The translations under genes and the position numbers were made by a program. Below, piece by piece: positions 1 to 9,063 of a stretch of 49,762 nucleotides of DNA (position 1 is the first letter of the stretch; every line of letters starts with the position of its first letter). The DNA comes from Eubacteriales bacterium (GTDB taxonomy: Bacteria; Bacillota; Clostridia; Oscillospirales; JAAYXM01), in contig JAZRPO010000075.1 of the NCBI GenBank assembly GCA_045649265.1, forward strand, positions 1-49,762. The letters are read 5' to 3'. Under the pieces are notes generated by a model. That model saw nothing but the letters and a program-made list of their open reading frames with translations. It did not search any database and was not told the DNA's origin.

Positions 1-3000
1 ACACGAAGAGTTGTTCTGTCTATAACCCTTACAAACTCCGTGTTAATTCGCTCAGGGAAAAGCTCGTTATTCTCAAATCCAGGGCCTATTCTTGCAAGGT
101 CTATGGCATCAATCTCATCTGCAAAAACAACACAATGCGGATTGCCTACCGAAAGGCAGGTTGACCTGTATGCCTTTCCGAATACCGATATCTGAAAATC
201 TATCATCTTCTCAGACGAGGATTTCGCCGGAATATCTTTTGAAAAAAGGCTCGCTCTGCCCATATCTACCGACACAGAATTGACAACACCGTCTCTGAGA
301 TAGAGTTTCATTCGATAAATTCCGCTTGCTGTTTCAATGGATATGTTTTCGCTTTTCACATAACCCTTGTCGTATAAAAGCTTCGCAACGCAACGGATAT
401 TATTTCCTGCCATTTTGCCCTCGCTGCCATCTCTGTTAAACGTTCGCATTTTTGCATCCGCATTTTGCGAGCGCTCAATCAGGACGATGCCGTCACCACC
501 GATGCCGTAATGCTCCTTGCAGAGACTTACGCAGAGCGATTCGGGACAAGTGAGCTTACCGTCAAAGTTTTCTATAAAAATATAGTCGTTTCCGCATGAG
601 TGCATTTTTGAAAAGCCAATCTTCTGGCGTTGCGTCCGCATTGCATTTATATCAACAAGCTCCGTATTTTCCAGAGTAAAGCCGCTTTCGATGATATCTG
701 CAAGTGCGTTTGCGGTATCAAGAGATGTCAGGCACGGAATCCCGAGCTGCATTGCGCGGCGGTGAAGCTTTATATAATCTCCGACGGTTGCATCACGAAC
801 TGCTCCCGTATAGATTACATAGCTTATGCTGCCACTCTCCATAAGACGATATACGCCGTCGCCCTCGTCTGCATTTTCAACCGAGGTGACTGCGATTCCG
901 GCATTGGCGATTGCGTTTGCTGTGCCACGGGTCGCAAAGAGACTGATGCCTGCATCATAAAAGCGTTTTGCAACCGAAATGACTTCCTGATAGTCGTTCT
1001 CCTCTACACTTATCAGAATTCCATGCAGTTTATCTCCGCCGACTGACGGAAGCGTAAAGCCTGCTGATGTGAGGCCTTTAAAGAGCGCCTCTGCCATAGT
1101 TTTTCCTATTCCGAGAACTTCACCCGTTGACTTCATCTCAGGGCCGAGAATTGAATTAACATCACTCAATTTCTCAAACGAGAAAACAGGAACCTTTACC
1201 GCAAAATACGGCGGTGTACGATATAGCCCCGTTCCATAGCCCATATCCGAAAGCTTCTCGCCGAGCATAACTCGCGATGCTATGTCAACCATAGGAACAT
1301 TCGTAACCTTGCTTATATAAGGCACCGTTCTTGATGCTCTGGGGTTTACCTCGATTACATAAAGCTCGTTATCGTATATGAGATATTGAATATTGACAAG
1401 CCCTTTTGTTTTCATCGCAAGGGCAAGCTTTTCAGAACAATCGCATATCTTCTGCAAAAATTTGTCGGTGAGGTTGTAGGGCGGATATACGGCGATAGAG
1501 TCTCCACTATGGACTCCTGCACGCTCAATATGCTCCATAATGCCAGGAATGAGAACATCCTCACCGTCTGAAATGACATCTACTTCAAGCTCCGTACCCG
1601 GCATATATTTATCGACCAAAACCGGATTTTCGATTTTCCCGGAAAGGATTGTTTCCATATACCGTTTTGTCTGCTCGGGGCTTCTTGAAATTGTCATATT
1701 CTGACCGCCAATTACGTATGACGGACGAAGGAGCACCGGATATCCAAAGCTCTCTGCCGCATTCAACGCCTCTTCGACCGTAAGAACACCCATTCCCTTG
1801 GGGCGTTTTATCGAGAAGGTTTCAAGCAGCTCATCAAAACGGGCACGGTCCTCTGCCATATCGATACTTTCAGCAGACGTGCCGAGGATTTTAACGCCTG
1901 CATCATCAAGAAACTTTGTAAGCTTTATCGCAGTCTGCCCACCAAATGCAACAACCACTCCGATTGGGTTTTCAACTTTGATAATGTTCATTACATCCTC
2001 AGGCGTAAGCGGCTCAAAATACAGCCTGTCTGCTGTATCATAGTCCGTGGAGACTGTTTCCGGATTGTTGTTGACAATTACAACATCATATCCCATTTCA
2101 CGAAGAGTCCAGACACAGTGAACAGAGCTGTAATCAAACTCTATCCCCTGCCCGATTCTTATAGGGCCTGACCCGAGCACCATTACAACAGGCTTTCCGC
2201 TTCGATGCTCAGCCCTCGCTTCACAGTCGCCGGTTGCCGAGGAATAGAAATATGATTTAACGGCAGGTGCGCCATCACGACAGGTATTAACCTTTTTGTA
2301 CGCAAGCTCAAATTCAGGGAAAGCACTCTCGTCCGCAAGTTGTGAAATTGCCTTGTCGGTATAACCGAGTTTCTTTGCTTCGATATAAATTTCTTTGGAA
2401 ATGCCCTCTTTTTCAAGCTTTCTCTCGAAATTACAGAGGTTTAAAAGCTTATTTAAAAACCACTTGTCAATTTTTGTGATCTTGTATATTTCATCAATCG
2501 AAATACCCTTTTTGAGCGCTTCGAATACGGTGAAAATCCTTCTGTCATTTTGCTCTTCGAGGCGCTCTGCAACGGGTTTGTCGCTGAGCGGAGCTGCGTT
2601 CAGAGTATCAAGAGAAATTTCAGCACCCCTTACAGCCTTTATAAGAGCCTCTTCAAAGCATGAACCTATTGCCATAACCTCTCCCGTTGCCTTCATCTGG
2701 GTTCCGAGCTTTCTGTCAGACTCTGAAAACTTATCAAAAGGCCATTTGGGGAATTTTACAACAACATAATCGACCTTCGGCTCAAAGAAAAAAGAGCCGC
2801 TACCCGTCATATCGTTTTTAATTTCATCAAGATTATAGCCGAGGGCTATTTTTGTCGTGATCTTTGCTATCGGGTAGCCCGTAGCCTTTGATGCGAGCGC
2901 AGATGAGCGCGAAACGCGCGGATTGACTTCTATTACCGCATACTCCATACTATCCGGTTTTAAGGCAAACTGGCAGTTACAACCGCCGATAATGCCTATT

Positions 3001-3821
3001 GAAGAGACTATATCAAGCGATGCTTTATACAGCATCTGGTACTCGGCTTCTGTGAGCGTAAGTGCAGGGGCTGCAACGATAGAGTCGCCCGTGTGGACAC
3101 CGACGGGGTCAATGTTTTCCATTGAACAGACTGCTATTGCGTTTCCTTCGGCATCACGCATCGTTTCAAACTCGATTTCCTTCCATCCGGAAATACACTT
3201 TTCGACGAGAATCTGGGTTATCGGAGACATATCAAGCCCGCTTTTTGCGATAACGGAAAGCTCTTCCTTCGTGTTGGCAATGCCTCCGCCTGTACCACCG
3301 AGAGTAAAGGCAGGCCTGACTATTACGGGATAGCCTATTCTCTCCGCTATATCAAGCGCATCCTGAACATTATCCGTAACATCTGACGGAACGCAGGGCT
3401 TTCCTATGTTACGCATTGCGTTTCTGAAAAGCTCTCTGTCCTCAGCGGTTTCTATCGCATCAACATTTGTTCCGAGGAGGCGAACATTGTATTTGTCAAG
3501 CGTACCGTCGCGAAATAGCTGCATGGCTATTGTGAGCCCTGTCTGGCCGCCGAGCCCTGCAAGAAGCCCGTCCGGGCGCTCTTTTTCAATAATTCTTCTG
3601 ACGGTATCACAGTTGAGCGGCTCTAAATATATTTCATCTGCGAGATTCTTATCCGTCATAATTGTTGCAGGGTTTGAGTTTACGAGCACAACATTTATGC
3701 CCTCTTCACGAAGAACACGGCAAGCCTGTGCACCGGCATAGTCAAACTCAGCTGCCTGACCTATGATTATCGGACCGGAGCCTATAACAAGAACTTTTGA
3801 AACTGTGTTATCCTTAGGCAT
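1..3821 (-). CDS. carB: Carbamoyl-phosphate synthase large subunit fused in frame to a C-terminal DapF-like (diaminopimelate epimerase fold) domain; runs off the left window edge (>1270 aa)
   Basis: ATG at 3821 after GAGGAGG. Reads MPKDNTVSKVLVIGSGPIIIGQAAEFDYAG..., GVHTGDS, IEVNPRVSRSSALASKATGYPIAK, then a second LGSGPIRIGQGIEFDY half and an MGS-like domain. From about 620 the same frame reads FSKMHSCGNDY..GIGGDG..FNRDGSEGKMAGNNIRC..VGNPH..FPERINTEFV. It is absent from the ORF track, consistent with no stop before the edge. Confidence 0.93.
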   Translation of the reverse strand, partial: MPKDNTVSKVLVIGSGPIIIGQAAEFDYAGAQACRVLREEGINVVLVNSNPATIMTDKNLADEIYLEPLNCDTVRRIIEKERPDGLLAGLGGQTGLTIAMQLFRDGTLDKYNVRLLGTNVDAIETAEDRELFRNAMRNIGKPCVPSDVTDNVQDALDIAERIGYPVIVRPAFTLGGTGGGIANTKEELSVIAKSGLDMSPITQILVEKCISGWKEIEFETMRDAEGNAIAVCSMENIDPVGVHTGDSIVAAPALTLTEAEYQMLYKASLDIVSSIGIIGGCNCQFALKPDSMEYAVIEVNPRVSRSSALASKATGYPIAKITTKIALGYNLDEIKNDMTGSGSFFFEPKVDYVVVKFPKWPFDKFSESDRKLGTQMKATGEVMAIGSCFEEALIKAVRGAEISLDTLNAAPLSDKPVAERLEEQNDRRIFTVFEALKKGISIDEIYKITKIDKWFLNKLLNLCNFERKLEKEGISKEIYIEAKKLGYTDKAISQLADESAFPEFELAYKKVNTCRDGAPAVKSYFYSSATGDCEARAEHRSGKPVVMVLGSGPIRIGQGIEFDYSSVHCVWTLREMGYDVVIVNNNPETVSTDYDTADRLYFEPLTPEDVMNIIKVENPIGVVVAFGGQTAIKLTKFLDDAGVKILGTSAESIDMAEDRARFDELLETFSIKRPKGMGVLTVEEALNAAESFGYPVLLRPSYVIGGQNMTISRSPEQTKRYMETILSGKIENPVLVDKYMPGTELEVDVISDGEDVLIPGIMEHIERAGVHSGDSIAVYPPYNLTDKFLQKICDCSEKLALAMKTKGLVNIQYLIYDNELYVIEVNPRASRTVPYISKVTNVPMVDIASRVMLGEKLSDMGYGTGLYRTPPYFAVKVPVFSFEKLSDVNSILGPEMKSTGEVLGIGKTMAEALFKGLTSAGFTLPSVGGDKLHGILISVEENDYQEVISVAKRFYDAGISLFATRGTANAIANAGIAVTSVENADEGDGVYRLMESGSISYVIYTGAVRDATVGDYIKLHRRAMQLGIPCLTSLDTANALADIIESGFTLENTELVDINAMRTQRQKIGFSKMHSCGNDYIFIENFDGKLTCPESLCVSLCKEHYGIGGDGIVLIERSQNADAKMRTFNRDGSEGKMAGNNIRCVAKLLYDKGYVKSENISIETASGIYRMKLYLRDGVVNSVSVDMGRASLFSKDIPAKSSSEKMIDFQISVFGKAYRSTCLSVGNPHCVVFADEIDAIDLARIGPGFENNELFPERINTEFVRVIDRTTLR

Positions 3822-3856
3822 TCACCCTGCCTCCTCAAATAAGAATGTGTTTCTTT

Positions 3857-4840
3857 TTATAAAGTTGCCGCCATTACAGCTTTAATAGTGTGCATACGGT
3901 TTTCCGCCTCATCAAAGACGATAGAGCGTTCGCTTTCTATTACTTCGTCTGTAACTTCCATTTCGGAAATACCGAATTTTTCATAAATATCACGGCCTAC
4001 AGTTGTTTTGAGGTCGTGGAAAGCAGGAAGACAATGCATAAACACGCAGTCTTCGCCTGCGTTATCCATAAGCTTCATATTTACTTGATACGGAAGAAGC
4101 TCTGCTATTCTCTCCTTCCATACCTCCTCAGGCTCACCCATGGAAACCCAGACATCGGTATAGATAACATTTGCATTCTTTGTAGCTTCCTCAGGGTTTT
4201 CAATAAACTCAATTACGGCGCCGGTTTCCTTTGCAATTTCGCGGCATTTTTCAACAAGCTCATCTGCCGGAAAATACTTTTTCGGTGCGCATGCTACAAA
4301 GTGCATTCCCATTTTTGCGCAGCCAACCATAAGAGAGTTGCCCATATTATACCTCGCGTCGCCCATATAGACGAGTTTTATGCCGGAGAGGGAACCGAAA
4401 CGCTCTTTGATTGTAAGAAAATCTGCAAGAATCTGAGTAGGATGAAACTCATTTGTAAGCCCATTCCATACAGGGACACCTGCATATTTTGCAAGCTCCT
4501 CTACAATCTCCTGACCAAATCCGCGATACTCTATACCGTCAAACATTCTGCCAAGAACGCGCGCGGTATCTGCGATGCTTTCTTTTTTGCCAATCTGCGA
4601 GCCCTGCGGGTCGAGATATACAGGGTGCATCCCAAGGTCAGCTGCCGCAACCTCAAAGGCGCAGCGTGTGCGAGTGCTTGTCTTTTCAAATATGAGAGCA
4701 ATGTTCTTGCCCTTGCAGGATCTGTGCGAAATTCCGCGCTGCTTCTTCGTTTTCAGCTTTTCGGCAAATTCAATAAGATAGTTGATCTCCTCAGGTGTAA
4801 AGTCAAGAAGTTTCAGAAAGCTTTTCCCTTTCAAATTCAT
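3857..4840 (-). CDS. argF: Ornithine carbamoyltransferase
   Basis: [20 protein letters not shown] and HCLP motifs. Start moved to ATG 4840 (MNLKGKSF) after GAAAGGA. Confidence 0.95.
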
Positions 4841-4862
4841 AATTAAATCTATCCTTTCGCAG

Positions 4863-6026
4863 TTATTCTTCACATACCTTTGCAATAATTTCTATAGCCT
4901 CGCGCAAGGTTTCATTTTCTATATTCAGTGGAGGAAGCAGGCGAACCTTATCCTTTGCGGTAAGACAAAGAACTCCGCGCTTCATACAAGCTTTTACTAC
5001 CGCTCCTGCCGGCTTTTTGGTTTTTATTCCAACCATCAGCCCCATACCACTGACAGCCTCAACCCCTTTACACTCAGAAAGGGTTTTAAAAATGTATTCA
5101 CTCTTTTCTCTTACATCTGATAGGAGCTTTTCATCAATTCGAGAAAGGATACTTAATGCGCCAGCCGCTGCAATGGGGTTTCCCCCAAAGGTTGAACCGT
5201 GGTCACCAAAACCCAGAACGCTCTCAACCTTTGCAGAAAGAAGCGCTGCTCCTATCGGGAGACCGCCGCCAAGCCCTTTTGCAGTAGTAACTACATCAGG
5301 CTTTATTCCGAAGCTCATATATGAATAGAGCTTGCCGCTTCTACCGTTACCCGTCTGCACTTCGTCAATGATGAGGATAATATCGTTTTGTTCTGCAAAC
5401 GCAGCTGTTTTTTTCACAAAATCAGCATCAAGGGCGATTACTCCGCCCTCCCCCTGAACACATTCCATCATTATAGCGGCGCATTTGTTTTTCAATGCTG
5501 CTTTTTCAAGAGCTGCAAAATCGTTTGCGGGAGTGTGAACAAACCCCGGAGTGAGCGGCTTGAAAAGCTCGTGATAATGCTCCTGACCCGTTGCGGCAAG
5601 AGTCGTGAGAGTTCTGCCGTGAAAACTGTTTTCAAGGGTCAGGATTGTAAAATAATCCTCCCCCTTCTTATCTGCAGCATATTTTCTCGCAACCTTTATG
5701 GCACATTCGTTTGCCTCTGCACCCGAGTTGCAGAAGAACACCTTTTTCATTGCTGTTTTTTCGCAAAGAAGCTCTGCAAGCTTTGCACAAGGCTCTGTAT
5801 AATAGAGATTCGACGTGTGCGCAAGCTTTGAAGCCTGCTCACTTACCGCCGCAACCCAAAGCTCGTCTGAAAAGCCGAAAGCGTTTACGCCGATTCCCGT
5901 GCCCATATCTATATATCTTTTTCCGTCTGCATCAAAGGCTTCCGAACCTTTCCCATTGACAATTTCTATCGGAAAACGGTTATATGTATTTGCAACATAG
6001 GCCTTATCTGTCTCTATAATGCTCAT
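4863..6026 (-). CDS. argD: Acetylornithine aminotransferase
   Basis: Class-III aminotransferase motifs [36 protein letters not shown]; lies in the arg operon. Confidence 0.93.
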
Positions 6027-6027
6027 T

Positions 6028-6891
6028 TTAACCTCCGGTTACCATTGTTCCTGCGCCCTCATTTGTGAGAAGCTCCATAAGAATGGAGTGAGGAACGCGA
6101 CCGTCCATAATAATTACTTTCTTTACGCCCTCGCGAATTGCTTCAATACAACAATCCACCTTTGGGATCATGCCTCCTGAAATTACGCCGTCAGCATATA
6201 GTTTTTCTGCGTCTTTAAGTGTTATTTCAGGGATGAGGGTTGTTGGGTCATCCTTATCACGCAAAATGCCGGCAATGTCCGTCATCATTATAAGCCGCTC
6301 TGCTCCCAGCGCACCTGCAATGTGAGCTGCCGCCGTGTCACCGTTGATGTTATATGTGTTACCGTCTATGTCGCAGCCGACAGTTGAAATTACGGGGATA
6401 TAATTTTTTTCCAGAAGGTCAACAACCGGCTTTATGTTAATTTTTGTGATTGCCCCGACATAGCCGAGCCTTTCATCCTTCATCTGAGCTTCGATAAGAC
6501 GCCCATCCATACCAGAAATCCCCATTGCTCTGCCGCCCTTTGCTTCTAGCAGAGTGACGAGGGTTTTGTTTACTTTGCCGGCAAGGACCATCTGGACAAT
6601 ATCAACAGTTTCCTTATCCGTCACGCGAAGCCCGTCTACAAACTCCGGCTTCTTGCCCAGCCGCTGCATAATATCGCTGATTTCGGGACCGCCTCCGTGA
6701 ACGAGGACAATTTTCACTCCGATAAGCCAAAGGAGAACAATATCCTCCATAACCTGCTGTTTGAGCTGCTCATCAACCATTGCGTTGCCACCGTATTTAA
6801 CGACAACAATTTTTCCGTTGTATCTTTTTATGTGAGGAAGCGCCTGAGTCAATACCTCTGCGCGCTCTGCATTCGAAAAAACATTTCCCAT
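6028..6891 (-). CDS. argB: Acetylglutamate kinase
   Basis: VKYGGNAM, VHGGGPEI, GLRVTD, GGMIPKV. Has an N-terminal extension typical of the arginine-sensitive form. Confidence 0.95.
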   Translation of the reverse strand: MGNVFSNAERAEVLTQALPHIKRYNGKIVVVKYGGNAMVDEQLKQQVMEDIVLLWLIGVKIVLVHGGGPEISDIMQRLGKKPEFVDGLRVTDKETVDIVQMVLAGKVNKTLVTLLEAKGGRAMGISGMDGRLIEAQMKDERLGYVGAITKINIKPVVDLLEKNYIPVISTVGCDIDGNTYNINGDTAAAHIAGALGAERLIMMTDIAGILRDKDDPTTLIPEITLKDAEKLYADGVISGGMIPKVDCCIEAIREGVKKVIIMDGRVPHSILMELLTNEGAGTMVTGG

Positions 6892-6908
6892 TTTCTTTAA
6901 CCTCCGGA

Positions 6909-8123
6909 TTATGTGCGATAATCGCCGTTAATTTTGACGTAATCATATGTAAGGTCGCAACCCCAGGCAGTAGCACCATATGCTCCGTTGCCGAGAGAAA
7001 TGATAATTGCGATTTCATTTTCAAGAAGAATTTCCTTCGCCTTTTCCTCTGAAAATTCAACGCCTGCGCCGTTTTTGCAGACGAGGATTTCTCCCTTTTT
7101 GCTTTTAAAGGAAACGTCTACTTTTTCGACATCGACATCTGCACCACTGTAACCAATAGCGCATAAAACTCTGCCCCAGTTTGCATCCGCGCCAAACATT
7201 GCGGCTTTTAAGAGGCTTGAACAGATTACACTCTTCGCAACTGTTTTTGCACAGTCCTCGCTCTGCGCCCCGTCAACGACACATTCGAGGAGCTTTGTTG
7301 CTCCCTCGCCGTCCGCAGCAATCATACGGCACAGATAAACAGTTACCGTGTTGAGCGCTTTCATAAATTCGTTAAACTCGGCTCCCTCGCACGTGATTTC
7401 ATCATTTTCTGCCATACCGTTTGCAAGAATTGCAACCATATCGTTTGTGGAGGTGTCGCCGTCTATACTTATCATATTAAAGGTGTTTTTGATATCTGAG
7501 GAGAGTGCTTTTTTGAGCATTTGGGAGCTAATGGCAACGTCGGTTGTGATAAACACAAGCATTGTAGCCATATTGGGATGAATCATTCCGCTGCCCTTTG
7601 CAATTCCTCCCATATGACAAACTTTCCCGCCGATCGAAAACTCAACTGCAATCTCTTTTTTTGATACATCGGTTGTCATTATTCCCTCAGCAGCAGCTTC
7701 GCTGCCATTCTTTGAAAGACCTTTTGCAAGCTTGCCGATTCCGTTTGCAATGGGGGTAACATCAAGAGGCTGGCCTATGACACCCGTTGATGCAACAACA
7801 ACATCACCCGGCGAGATGCTCATCTCATTTGCACAAAGCCCACACATTTTTTCTGCGATTTCAATTCCGTCTGCATTGCATGTATTTGCATTTCCACTAT
7901 TGCAGATTATCGCCTGAGCCTTGCCGTCTGCAAGATTGCGCTTCGTAACGGTGAGCGGAGCACCCTTTACAAGGTTTGTTGTGTAAACCGCTGCAGCCGA
8001 AGCCTGAGCTTCGCTGAATATTAAAGCGAGATCTCGTTTTGATTTGTTTTTACGGATTCCGCAGTGAATTCCGTTTGCTGAAAAGCCCTTTGCGGCACAA
8101 ACGCCGCCCTCAATTATCTTCAT
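6909..8123 (-). CDS. argJ: Glutamate N-acetyltransferase / ornithine acetyltransferase
   Basis: NSGNAN, STGVIG, KGSGMIHPNMATML (autoproteolysis site), DGDTSTND, DGEGATK, Y-V-K-I-N-G-D-Y-R-T C-terminus. ATG 8123 follows GGAGG. Confidence 0.95.
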   Translation of the reverse strand: MKIIEGGVCAAKGFSANGIHCGIRKNKSKRDLALIFSEAQASAAAVYTTNLVKGAPLTVTKRNLADGKAQAIICNSGNANTCNADGIEIAEKMCGLCANEMSISPGDVVVASTGVIGQPLDVTPIANGIGKLAKGLSKNGSEAAAEGIMTTDVSKKEIAVEFSIGGKVCHMGGIAKGSGMIHPNMATMLVFITTDVAISSQMLKKALSSDIKNTFNMISIDGDTSTNDMVAILANGMAENDEITCEGAEFNEFMKALNTVTVYLCRMIAADGEGATKLLECVVDGAQSEDCAKTVAKSVICSSLLKAAMFGADANWGRVLCAIGYSGADVDVEKVDVSFKSKKGEILVCKNGAGVEFSEEKAKEILLENEIAIIISLGNGAYGATAWGCDLTYDYVKINGDYRT

Positions 8124-8139
8124 CGTAAACAATCCTCCG

Positions 8140-9063
8140 TTATACGTTTAATCCTGTTTTTTCATCTGTGCCGAGAAGCAGATTCATGTTCTGAATCGCC
8201 GCTCCGGAAGCGCCCTTGCCCAGATTATCAAATCTGGAAACAAGAAGAATTCTTTCATCGTTTCCATAGACTGACACTTCCATATCATCACGGCCTGAAA
8301 ACGCTGAAGCAGAAAGAAAACCGCCCTCATCGTTATTTTCGCAAAAATGAACAAGCCCTTTTTCATAATATTTTTCATATATTGACTTAATATCGCTAAT
8401 ACCGCCTGATATATCCTTTCTGAAAAGAGGAATCGTGACTTCCATTCCGCTATAGTACGGAGCAACTATCGGGCAGAAAACCGGCGCATTTTCAAGCTCG
8501 CATTGTGCTGAAATCTCAGGAAGATGCTTATGCGCCTGCGAAAGACCGTACATCCTGGGAGCTGAGAGAAGCGAAGATTTTTCTTCTGCCTCATACTCTG
8601 CAATCATTTTCTTTCCGCCGCCGGAATATCCCGTAAGCGACAAGCAGGAAAGCTTTGCACTTCGGCAGAGAAGCCCTGCTTCAACAAGAGGAGCTATAAG
8701 AGCTATCGCACCGCTTGCATGGCAACCCGGATTTGCAATACGTTTGGAAGAAATTATTTCTTCCCGCCTGCCGGAAAGCTCCGGAAAACCATATGCCCAG
8801 CCCACTGCCGTGCGATGCGCGGTTGATGTGTCAATAACCGCAGTGGAATCGTTTTCTATAAACGAAACAGACTCTATCGCTGCCGCATCAGGGAGACACA
8901 AAAAAACAATATCTGCACAATTCAGCTTTTCACGCCTTGCTTCCGCATCTTTTCTTTTTTCTTCACTGAGCGAAAGAAGCTCTATATCTCGCCTCTGTGC
9001 CAACCGCTCATAAATCCTGAGCCCAGTTGTGCCTGCGCTGCCGTCAATAAACACTTTTGTCAT
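8140..9063 (-). CDS. argC: N-acetyl-gamma-glutamyl-phosphate reductase (short type-2 form)
   Basis: VFIDGSAGTTGL, IANPGCH, GYSGGGK, DNLGKGASGAAIQNMN. Confidence 0.94.
   Translation of the reverse strand: MTKVFIDGSAGTTGLRIYERLAQRRDIELLSLSEEKRKDAEARREKLNCADIVFLCLPDAAAIESVSFIENDSTAVIDTSTAHRTAVGWAYGFPELSGRREEIISSKRIANPGCHASGAIALIAPLVEAGLLCRSAKLSCLSLTGYSGGGKKMIAEYEAEEKSSLLSAPRMYGLSQAHKHLPEISAQCELENAPVFCPIVAPYYSGMEVTIPLFRKDISGGISDIKSIYEKYYEKGLVHFCENNDEGGFLSASAFSGRDDMEVSVYGNDERILLVSRFDNLGKGASGAAIQNMNLLLGTDEKTGLNV

What the first reader, a model, noticed from the sequence alone, without database searches (positions are those of the whole stretch)
1..3821. Carbamoyl-phosphate synthase large subunit fused to a DapF-fold domain
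Seen: after about 1067 aa of complete CarB (two ATP-grasp halves plus the MGS-like domain), the same frame continues through ...ELVDINAMRTQRQKIGFSKMHSCGNDY into a diaminopimelate-epimerase fold (GIGGDG, FNxDGSE, VGNPH, FPERINTEF). I saw no stop and no usable internal SD at the junction (about 600-660). Established: canonical CarB ends at the MGS-like allosteric domain, and DapF is a stand-alone lysine/peptidoglycan enzyme. Inference: a domain built to bind a diamino acid is attached directly to the allosteric end of the arginine-pathway CPS. It could be an uncharacterised link between the Arg and Lys/DAP pools.
Basis: partly seen in the sequence, partly recalled or inferred. Interest (0 to 1): 0.8.

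Follow-up and report, generated by a model that had tools for sequence, protein, structure and literature searches.

The report
CarB fused to one-cysteine DapF domain
The last gene of this gut bacterium's arginine operon really does join carbamoyl-phosphate synthase to a diaminopimelate-epimerase domain, but that domain has lost one of its two catalytic cysteines while staying tightly conserved, so it probably does something other than epimerise diaminopimelate.

Summary
Window 3..3821 (- strand) is one open frame: a complete CarB, a linker of about 20 residues, then a DapF domain. It continues on contig C5 to give 1344 aa.

The fusion is not an artefact. 112 of 301 genomes sampled across the order carry the same in-frame junction, and a contig from another sequencing run covers it without indels.

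Cys217 and the DAP-pocket residues are kept. The domain is under purifying selection as strong as in CarB.

Related fusions that keep both cysteines exist and are sometimes the only DapF in their genome. All 35 genomes examined whose fused domain lacks Cys73 have another route to meso-DAP: a second DapF or Ddh. This genome uses Ddh.

Best reading: an ancient bifunctional fusion whose epimerase was disabled and kept as a ligand-binding and/or dimerising module of an arginine-specific CPS that has no CarA. The actual function is unknown.

This scan reported the same thing before, on six other genomes. I found no paper on it.

The parts
687..3821 (-). CarB proper (aa 1-1045): two ATP-grasp halves, oligomerisation domain and MGS-like allosteric domain
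   Evidence: Pfam. Aligns to E. coli CarB up to residue 1055 of 1073.
621..686 (-). Linker (aa 1046-1067) in the place of the native CarB C-terminal tail; no stop and no well-spaced Shine-Dalgarno site
   Evidence: The linker is alignable in relatives. pLDDT is lower here in the model of a relative.
3..620 (-). DapF-derived domain, first 206 aa (aa 1068-1273); the remaining 71 aa lie on contig C5 of the same assembly
   Evidence: PF01678 and TIGR00652 (184 bits, cut-off 114.65). PDB DapF 9mro E 1.5e-43. C5 overlap.
408..410 (-). GCA = Ala1138 at the position of catalytic Cys73 of DapF
   Evidence: Aligned under the Cys of CGNG in 9mro, 2otn and 3ejx. Codon read; coordinates. X1 contigs over this place show no difference.
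399..401 (-). Asn1141 at position 76 (Gly or Ala in two-cysteine DapFs); part of the altered AGNN motif
3857..4885 (-). argF (ornithine carbamoyltransferase), immediately upstream; no carA between it and carB
   Evidence: NCBIfam TIGR00658, 443 bits.
4863..9063 (-). argD (4863-6026), argB (6028-6891), argJ (6909-8132), argC (8140-9063): the rest of the operon argCJBDF-carB::dapF'
   Evidence: NCBIfam TIGR00707, TIGR00761, TIGR00120, TIGR01851.

Best explanation
One gene encodes an arginine-specific CPS large subunit with a C-terminal domain descended from diaminopimelate epimerase. The fusion arose long ago in this Clostridia order (Oscillospiraceae and allied gut and rumen lineages) as a true bifunctional CarB-DapF. 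In the window's clade the epimerase was disabled by loss of Cys73 (Ala here). The domain was then kept under selection as a non-epimerising module. It still has the DAP pocket, Cys217 and the DapF dimer surface. It therefore most likely binds meso-DAP or a similar diamino-dicarboxylate and/or dimerises the CPS through its allosteric end. Shown: the fusion, the Cys loss, the pocket conservation, the purifying selection, and that DapF activity is dispensable in this genome. Inferred: ligand binding, dimerisation, and any effect on CPS activity.
For: Fusion: real and widespread.
Cys73 loss: Ala replaces Cys73 in alignments to solved DapFs. Cys73 and Cys217 are named as the catalytic pair in passages of PMC6061791. 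Of the 120 best long homologues, 113 have A, 6 have G, none has C and 1 could not be matched; Cys217 is kept in 119 of 119 matched.
Pocket: among 249 Cys73-less domains, N64 is kept in 249, N75 in 248, N157 in 247, N190 in 247, E208 in 243, R209 in 244, and Cys217 in 239 of 243 non-gap. In 35 Cys73-less fused genes from genomes, pocket columns are 0.94-1.00 conserved (N11 0.63) against a mean column of 0.69.
Selection: dN/dS of the Cys73-less domain is 0.007-0.158 in 11 pairs. The CarB C-terminus of the same genes gives 0.008-0.146, and pairs that keep Cys73 give 0.014-0.115.
Dispensability: this genome has dapA, lysA and Ddh over cut-off, no DapL over cut-off and no other DapF. G017, same genus and 99% complete, has dapA, lysA and Ddh but no DapF at all.
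Alternative routes: all 35 genomes with a Cys73-less fused domain have a second DapF (26) or Ddh (9). Of 18 genomes whose fused domain keeps Cys73, 6 have neither.
History: the tree needs at least 6 changes between Cys and non-Cys among 54 fused rows, with A, G, S, F and Y as replacements.
Structure: the model of the G004 orthologue (77% identical over the DapF domain) has pLDDT 88.2 and matches ligand-bound DapF 9mro at TM 0.92 and rmsd 1.7 A.
Dimer: the homodimer prediction scored 0.42, just at the mark, against a best control of 0.00. That mark was reached by 20 of 30 solved homo-pairs and 1 of 23 single chains. The three runs agreed in 100% of contacts and partner pLDDT was at least 89. 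DapF dimers are already solved, so this pass may only reflect likeness to them.
Against: No ligand, no effect on CPS and no oligomeric state has been measured.
Cys217 is almost invariant, which a pure binding module would not obviously need and which fits a residual or new chemistry better.
Phe or Tyr at position 73 in some lineages might block the pocket, yet those lineages keep the other pocket residues too.
G029 has Ser at 217, no second DapF and no Ddh found (90% complete). It does not fit the rule that a catalytic cysteine is lost only where another route exists.
Many dS values exceed 1, so several of the ratios are rough.
Related genomes are not independent samples, so 35 of 35 overstates the statistical weight.
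The numbering and roles of the pocket residues other than the two cysteines are recalled from the H. influenzae and E. coli DapF literature, not taken from any call.
Confidence: 0.55

Rival explanations
1. New single-base enzyme. With only Cys217 left, the domain abstracts an alpha-proton and catalyses a different reaction, such as an elimination, on DAP or a related amino acid. The analogy is with proline-racemase-like dehydratases, in which one of the two cysteines is replaced (that role of the replacement is recalled).
For: Cys217 is kept in 239 of 243 Cys73-less domains and the whole pocket is kept. Purifying selection is strong. Hydroxyproline dehydratases of the same fold appear among the structural matches (6r76, 4k7g).
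Against: Position 73 carries A, G, S, F or Y in different lineages rather than one new catalytic residue. No candidate substrate or pathway partner is evident in the arg operon.
Confidence: 0.2
2. Still a working, if slower, diaminopimelate epimerase, with water or another residue taking the role of Cys73.
For: The domain scores above the TIGR00652 equivalog cut-off. The pocket and Cys217 are intact. It is the only DapF homologue in this genome.
Against: All 35 genomes with a Cys73-less fused domain have a second DapF or Ddh, whereas fused domains that are the sole route keep Cys73 in 5 of 6 cases. G017 of the same genus lives without any DapF. Bulky Phe or Tyr at position 73 is tolerated. Position 76 is Asn here, which is no acid-base catalyst.
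Confidence: 0.12
3. A purely structural handle that dimerises or stabilises CPS, with no ligand involved. The pocket is conserved only because it is the domain core.
For: The predicted homodimer uses the N-terminal strand, the 179-185 loop and the C-terminal strand (score 0.42, best control 0.00; the mark was reached by 20 of 30 solved pairs and 1 of 23 single chains; runs agree 100%; pLDDT at least 89). A non-catalytic role of DapF as protein partner of RppH is documented (passages of PMC6061791).
Against: Eight polar pocket columns are 100% conserved against 0.69 on average, and only 23% of columns reach 0.97. That is more than fold maintenance should need. The dimer pass may be a memory of solved DapF dimers.
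Confidence: 0.1
4. Assembly or sequencing artefact: a lost stop codon or a chimeric contig has joined two separate genes.
For: The window starts at a contig end inside the domain, and the assembly graph branches there (141-base overlap).
Against: The break is 460 bases or more from the junction. The same in-frame junction occurs in 112 of 301 genomes and in all 120 best long database proteins. An independent contig covers it.
Confidence: 0.01

Closest known systems
Two-cysteine CarB-DapF fusions of the same order (for example genomes G025, G072, G223, G120, G289; protein P0245, 1349 aa)
   Same: Same architecture, linker and length. Their DapF domains group with the window's among the fused rows of the DapF tree.
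   Different: They keep CGNG/CGNA with Cys73. In the five genomes named they are the only DapF and no Ddh was found, so they are presumably real bifunctional enzymes. The window has AGNN.
E. coli CarB / CarAB carbamoyl-phosphate synthetase (PDB 1a9x, 1bxr, 1jdb, 1ce8)
   Same: All CarB domains are present. The C-terminal 286 aa align to residues 797-1055 at E 1e-64.
   Different: There is no CarA anywhere in this genome, so the enzyme is presumably ammonia-dependent (the premise is recalled). A 284-aa domain is added after the allosteric domain. It sits in the arg operon, while a second CarB sits in the pyr operon.
Diaminopimelate epimerase DapF (TIGR00652, PF01678; PDB 9mro, 2otn, 3ejx, 4ijz, 1gqz)
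   Same: Two PF01678 repeats. 41% identity and TM 0.92 to 9mro for the modelled orthologue. Pocket residues and Cys217 are kept.
   Different: Cys73 is replaced by Ala and Gly76 by Asn. The domain is fused to CarB. It is not needed for meso-DAP in this genome.
E. coli DapF as activator of RppH (PMC6061791; PDB 6d13)
   Same: A precedent for a DapF fold acting through protein contact rather than epimerisation (passages read).
   Different: That DapF is still a full epimerase and is not fused. No RppH link was examined here.
Proline-racemase-like dehydratases with one cysteine replaced (PDB 6r76, 4k7g)
   Same: Same superfold. Loss of one of the two thiols goes with a change of reaction (the principle is recalled; the structures appear).
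   Different: Only 16-17% identity, other substrates, and a defined replacement residue rather than A, G, S, F or Y.

Membership tests
CarB (carbamoyl-phosphate synthase large subunit) | Two ATP-grasp halves, each with its pre-ATP-grasp domain | tested here: met
   PF02786 x2 (E 2e-109) and PF25596 x2.
CarB (carbamoyl-phosphate synthase large subunit) | Oligomerisation domain and C-terminal MGS-like allosteric domain | tested here: met
   PF02787 at aa 419-495 and PF02142 at aa 947-1032. Aligns to E. coli residues 797-1055.
Glutamine-dependent CarAB holoenzyme | A CarA small subunit (PF00988 N-domain plus glutaminase) encoded in the genome | tested here: not met
   PF00988 gave no match in G000 (96.8% complete), G004 or G017. 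It was found in G027 and G033 and in 14 of 14 control genomes.
DapF, diaminopimelate epimerase (TIGR00652 / PF01678) | Two DAP_epimerase repeats forming the DapF fold | tested here: met
   TIGR00652 scores 184 bits against a cut-off of 114.65 on the window part alone. The model of the orthologue matches 9mro at TM 0.92.
DapF, diaminopimelate epimerase (TIGR00652 / PF01678) | First catalytic thiol (Cys73, motif CGNG) | tested here: not met
   Ala1138 aligns with the Cys of 9mro, 2otn and 3ejx. None of the 119 matched long homologues has Cys there.
DapF, diaminopimelate epimerase (TIGR00652 / PF01678) | Second catalytic thiol (Cys217, motif CGTG/CGSG) | tested here: met
   Present on the contig C5 part; aa 1287.
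DapF, diaminopimelate epimerase (TIGR00652 / PF01678) | Substrate-binding residues N11, N64, N75, N157, N190, E208, R209 (roles recalled from the literature) | tested here: met
   All are present in the window protein and in 94-100% of Cys73-less relatives, except N11, which is N or D.
DapF, diaminopimelate epimerase (TIGR00652 / PF01678) | Interconverts LL- and meso-DAP | not testable with these tools
   Comparative evidence only: a Ddh route is present, no DapL is over cut-off, and a congener lacks any DapF.

The most novel reading that the evidence does not exclude
The disabled DapF domain is an allosteric sensor. It binds meso-DAP, the shared precursor of lysine and peptidoglycan, without turning it over. 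Through its attachment to the allosteric domain and its dimer contact it tunes an ammonia-dependent, arginine-specific CPS. This would be a hard-wired link between cell-wall/lysine status and arginine synthesis in a large part of the gut and rumen Oscillospirales.
Probability: 0.25. Interest if true: 0.75.

Novelty: new variant of a known kind. Interest (0 to 1): 0.55.

Why it matters
About a third of the species sampled in this abundant gut and rumen order carry a CarB-DapF fusion (112 of 301). At least 35 of the 53 fused genes whose domain I read have lost Cys73. Annotation pipelines label the protein simply as CarB, or its fragments as DapF (names). Automated pathway reconstruction will therefore wrongly credit these genomes with an epimerase, or overlook the extra domain. 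If the domain is a ligand sensor or a new enzyme, it would be a natural and repeatedly evolved case of an enzyme turned into a regulatory or otherwise repurposed module on a central nitrogen enzyme. It would also be easy to test, because two-cysteine and one-cysteine versions exist side by side in related genomes.

Tried and rejected
1. Relocated catalytic cysteine. The Cys two residues before GND (aa 1076) looked like a replacement for Cys73. However, a canonical two-cysteine stand-alone DapF (P0237) has it too, and 9 of the 110 long homologues matched at that motif have Ala or Ser there. Rejected.
2. Decaying relic. Rejected by dN/dS and pocket conservation.
3. Internal translation start producing a separate DapF. 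The Shine-Dalgarno spacing is poor and the Met is not conserved. Unlikely, but not excluded.
4. Literature. Four searches found no paper on the fusion: (63 hits, 15 listed, none relevant by title or abstract). GapMind 2026 (PMC13759103, passages only) discusses DapF2 and not this fusion. Supplements are closed and were not seen.
5. Expression. No RNA holder was listed for window 1-1500.
6. Reads. Only Logan contigs from runs holding 10-28% of the words were available. Parts of 1-1500 have no cover, for example 901-1100.
7. One joint (728 to 1111) appeared in a single X1 contig at 90% likeness. I take it to be another organism or a conserved-part match and did not follow it up.
8. Context of the stand-alone Y73 homologue of Mobilibacterium timonense (P0212). 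It was not among the 80 loci returned.
9. One search failed through my own frame slip. It was corrected.
10. I compared the residues I remembered as the nucleotide-effector site of E. coli CarB with the alignment and left this out, because the numbering came from memory.
Full report
OBSERVATION. The frame on the minus strand from 3821 to the window's first bases is open for 1273 codons from an ATG. Pfam places the full set of CarB domains in aa 1-1032 and DAP_epimerase from aa 1070. The CarB part aligns to E. coli CarB up to residue 1055 of 1073, so a linker of about 20 residues replaces the native tail. There is no stop at the junction. The nearest GGAG is 18 nt upstream of the Met codon at 639-641.

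The window is the start of contig C75 of a 1.35-Mb assembly in 81 contigs, 96.8% complete. Contig C5 ends with 141 bases identical to window 1-141 and carries the last 117 residues of the domain, a stop, and a convergent 397-aa ORF that I take to be metK by eye, without a family search. Joined in a script, the ORF is 1344 aa, the modal length of its relatives. The break lies inside the DapF part, not at the junction.

IS IT REAL? Yes.
- All 120 best long database proteins carry both CPSase and DAP_epimerase domains. Most are 1339-1347 aa and come from Clostridia, Oscillospiraceae or Eubacteriales MAGs, where NCBI names them only 'carbamoyl-phosphate synthase large subunit'.
- A query spanning the junction finds uninterrupted frames in 17 of 40 relatives.
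- The same holds in 112 of 301 genomes at least 90% complete, drawn evenly from the order. This is my count of the rows, and a few of those frames are cut by contig ends.
- Contigs of an unrelated bovine-gut run cover 539-689 and the Ala codon with no indel and no difference at that codon.
- The best 80 named loci are all gut or rumen MAGs: Oscillospiraceae, Ca. Limivicinus, Faecousia, Acutalibacteraceae, CAG:272 and Christensenella-labelled bins.

In alignments to solved DapFs (9mro, 2otn, 3ejx) the Cys of the CGNG motif is Ala (AGNN). The codon is GCA at 408-410. Cys73 and Cys217 are the catalytic pair of DapF (passage in PMC6061791). Cys217 is present on the C5 part.

Among the 120 long homologues, position 73 is A in 113, G in 6 and C in none (1 unmatched). 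Cys217 is kept in 119 of 119 matched. In 375 aligned DapF domains drawn from three searches, 249 lack Cys73 (A 225, G 17, S 5, R 1, Y 1). Those 249 keep N64 (249), N75 (248), N157 (247), N190 (247), E208 (243), R209 (244) and Cys217 (239 of 243 non-gap). The roles of these residues are recalled from the DapF literature.

HISTORY. CarB-DapF fusions with both cysteines exist: P0245 and fragments, and 18 of the 53 genome copies whose domain I read.

A quick maximum-likelihood tree of 70 domains puts the window in a well-supported clade (99) of 23 Cys73-less fused domains plus one stand-alone homologue, that of Mobilibacterium timonense (Y73). Further losses lie elsewhere on the tree: an F/Y73 clade, two G73 lines and an S73 line. 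At least 6 changes are needed among 54 fused rows, although starred branches alone force only 2-3. In G097 and G252 the fused gene, with Cys kept, is followed directly by a stand-alone dapF. That hints at how a spare copy may arise.

IS THE DOMAIN STILL NEEDED AS AN EPIMERASE? The evidence says no.
- This genome has dapA, lysA and a meso-DAP dehydrogenase well over cut-off. No DapL is over cut-off and there is no other DapF. Ddh makes meso-DAP directly, which is established knowledge (recalled).
- G017, same genus and 99% complete, has dapA, lysA and Ddh but no DapF homologue and no CarB fusion.
- Across the order, all 35 genomes whose fused domain lacks Cys73 have either a second DapF (26, from four or more PF01678 hits or a fetched stand-alone gene) or Ddh (9).
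- Of 18 genomes whose fused domain keeps Cys73, 6 have neither. In five of these the fused domain has both cysteines and must be the working DapF.
- The sixth, G029, has Ser217 and is an unexplained exception (90% complete).
- Fisher's exact test on these counts gives p = 0.0008. Related genomes are not independent, so I treat this as description only.

IS IT A RELIC? No. dN/dS of the Cys73-less domain is 0.007-0.158 in 11 close pairs. The last 170 residues of CarB in the same genes give 0.008-0.146, and pairs that keep Cys73 give 0.014-0.115. Several dS values exceed 1 and are saturated. Pocket columns are 0.94-1.00 conserved in each independent loss lineage (N11 is N or D), against a mean of 0.69.

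An AlphaFold model of the G004 orthologue's last 419 residues (52-row alignment) has pLDDT 88.2 and pTM 0.74, with a weaker linker. Its DapF part superposes on ligand-bound 9mro at TM 0.92 and rmsd 1.7 A.

A two-copy prediction of the domain just reached the mark: score 0.42, best control 0.00. The mark was reached by 20 of 30 solved homo-pairs and 1 of 23 single chains. The runs agree in 100% of contacts and pLDDT is at least 89. The interface uses the first strand, a loop and the C-terminal strand. DapF dimers are already solved, so this may show likeness only.

CONTEXT. The gene closes the operon argC-argJ-argB-argD-argF-carB::dapF', and argG lies elsewhere. A second CarB of 992 aa, with an MGS domain and no DapF, sits in a pyr operon: pyrC-carB2-pyrK-pyrD-pyrF-pyrE-pyrB. 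The fused enzyme is therefore the arginine-specific CPS.

No CarA N-domain is found in this genome, in G004 or in G017. Several congeners have frames of 1503-1539 aa. Database homologues of that length (for example P0002) carry only the CarA N-domain, with no glutaminase family listed, fused in front.

READING. Best (0.55): a disabled epimerase kept as a ligand-binding and/or dimerising module on the allosteric end of an ammonia-dependent, arginine-specific CPS. Rivals:
- a new single-thiol chemistry (0.2), favoured by the near-invariance of Cys217;
- a residual epimerase (0.12);
- a ligand-free structural handle (0.1);
- an artefact (0.01).
None of these can be settled without biochemistry.

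KNOWN OR NEW. CarB and DapF are textbook enzymes. The fusion is abundant in databases but was absent from the papers I could search. This scan reached the same conclusion on six other genomes, and my calls reproduce those claims independently.

Noticed in passing
whole genome G000; window 3822-3856: No CarA (PF00988) is found anywhere in this 96.8%-complete genome, nor in congeners G004 and G017. argF abuts carB with a 35-base spacer. Both CPS large subunits would have to work with ammonia.
   Followed up: partly
G010, G016, G008, G009, G012, G001, G011; P0002, P0008: Several same-genus relatives have frames of 1503-1539 aa. Database proteins of that length have about 158 extra N-terminal residues matching only the CarA N-domain (PF00988), with no glutaminase family listed: a triple fusion CarA-N + CarB + DapF'.
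   Followed up: partly
L153:3875-6853 (G000:C71): A second CarB of 992 aa lies in the pyr operon. Its first ATP-grasp domain starts at aa 63 rather than about aa 128, so about 65 N-terminal residues seem to be missing or in another frame. A 213-base gap separates it from pyrC.
   Followed up: no
L153:9835-10929 (G000:C71): pyrB carries a C-terminal PyrI_C (regulatory-chain metal-binding) domain in the same frame.
   Followed up: no
window 1-141 = G000:C5:40934-41074: Two contigs overlap by exactly 141 identical bases inside the DapF-like domain. This looks like an assembly-graph branch point, which may reflect strain variants or the conserved paralogue-like sequence.
   Followed up: partly
P0212 (Mobilibacterium timonense, 284 aa): A stand-alone 'diaminopimelate epimerase' of a cultured isolate nests inside the Cys73-less fused clade. 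It has Tyr at position 73 and begins with linker-like residues. It may be a secondary split, and it offers a culturable handle for experiments.
   Followed up: partly
L020 (G097:C29) and L021 (G252:C3): A fused carB-dapF with both cysteines kept is followed directly by a second, stand-alone dapF.
   Followed up: partly
L027 (G029:C37): This fused domain keeps Cys73 but has Ser at 217 and Gly/Pro at 75/76. It is the only DapF homologue found and no Ddh was found (genome 90% complete). It does not fit the general pattern.
   Followed up: partly
G067, G087, G140, G173, G308, G286, G075, G136, G171: Nine of the 35 Cys73-less fused domains read from genomes have a Cys at position 76, three residues after the lost one (AGNC, AGSC or GGNC). 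The window has Asn there.
   Followed up: no
window 11000-49762: The rest of the window was only listed as ORFs and was not annotated.
   Followed up: no
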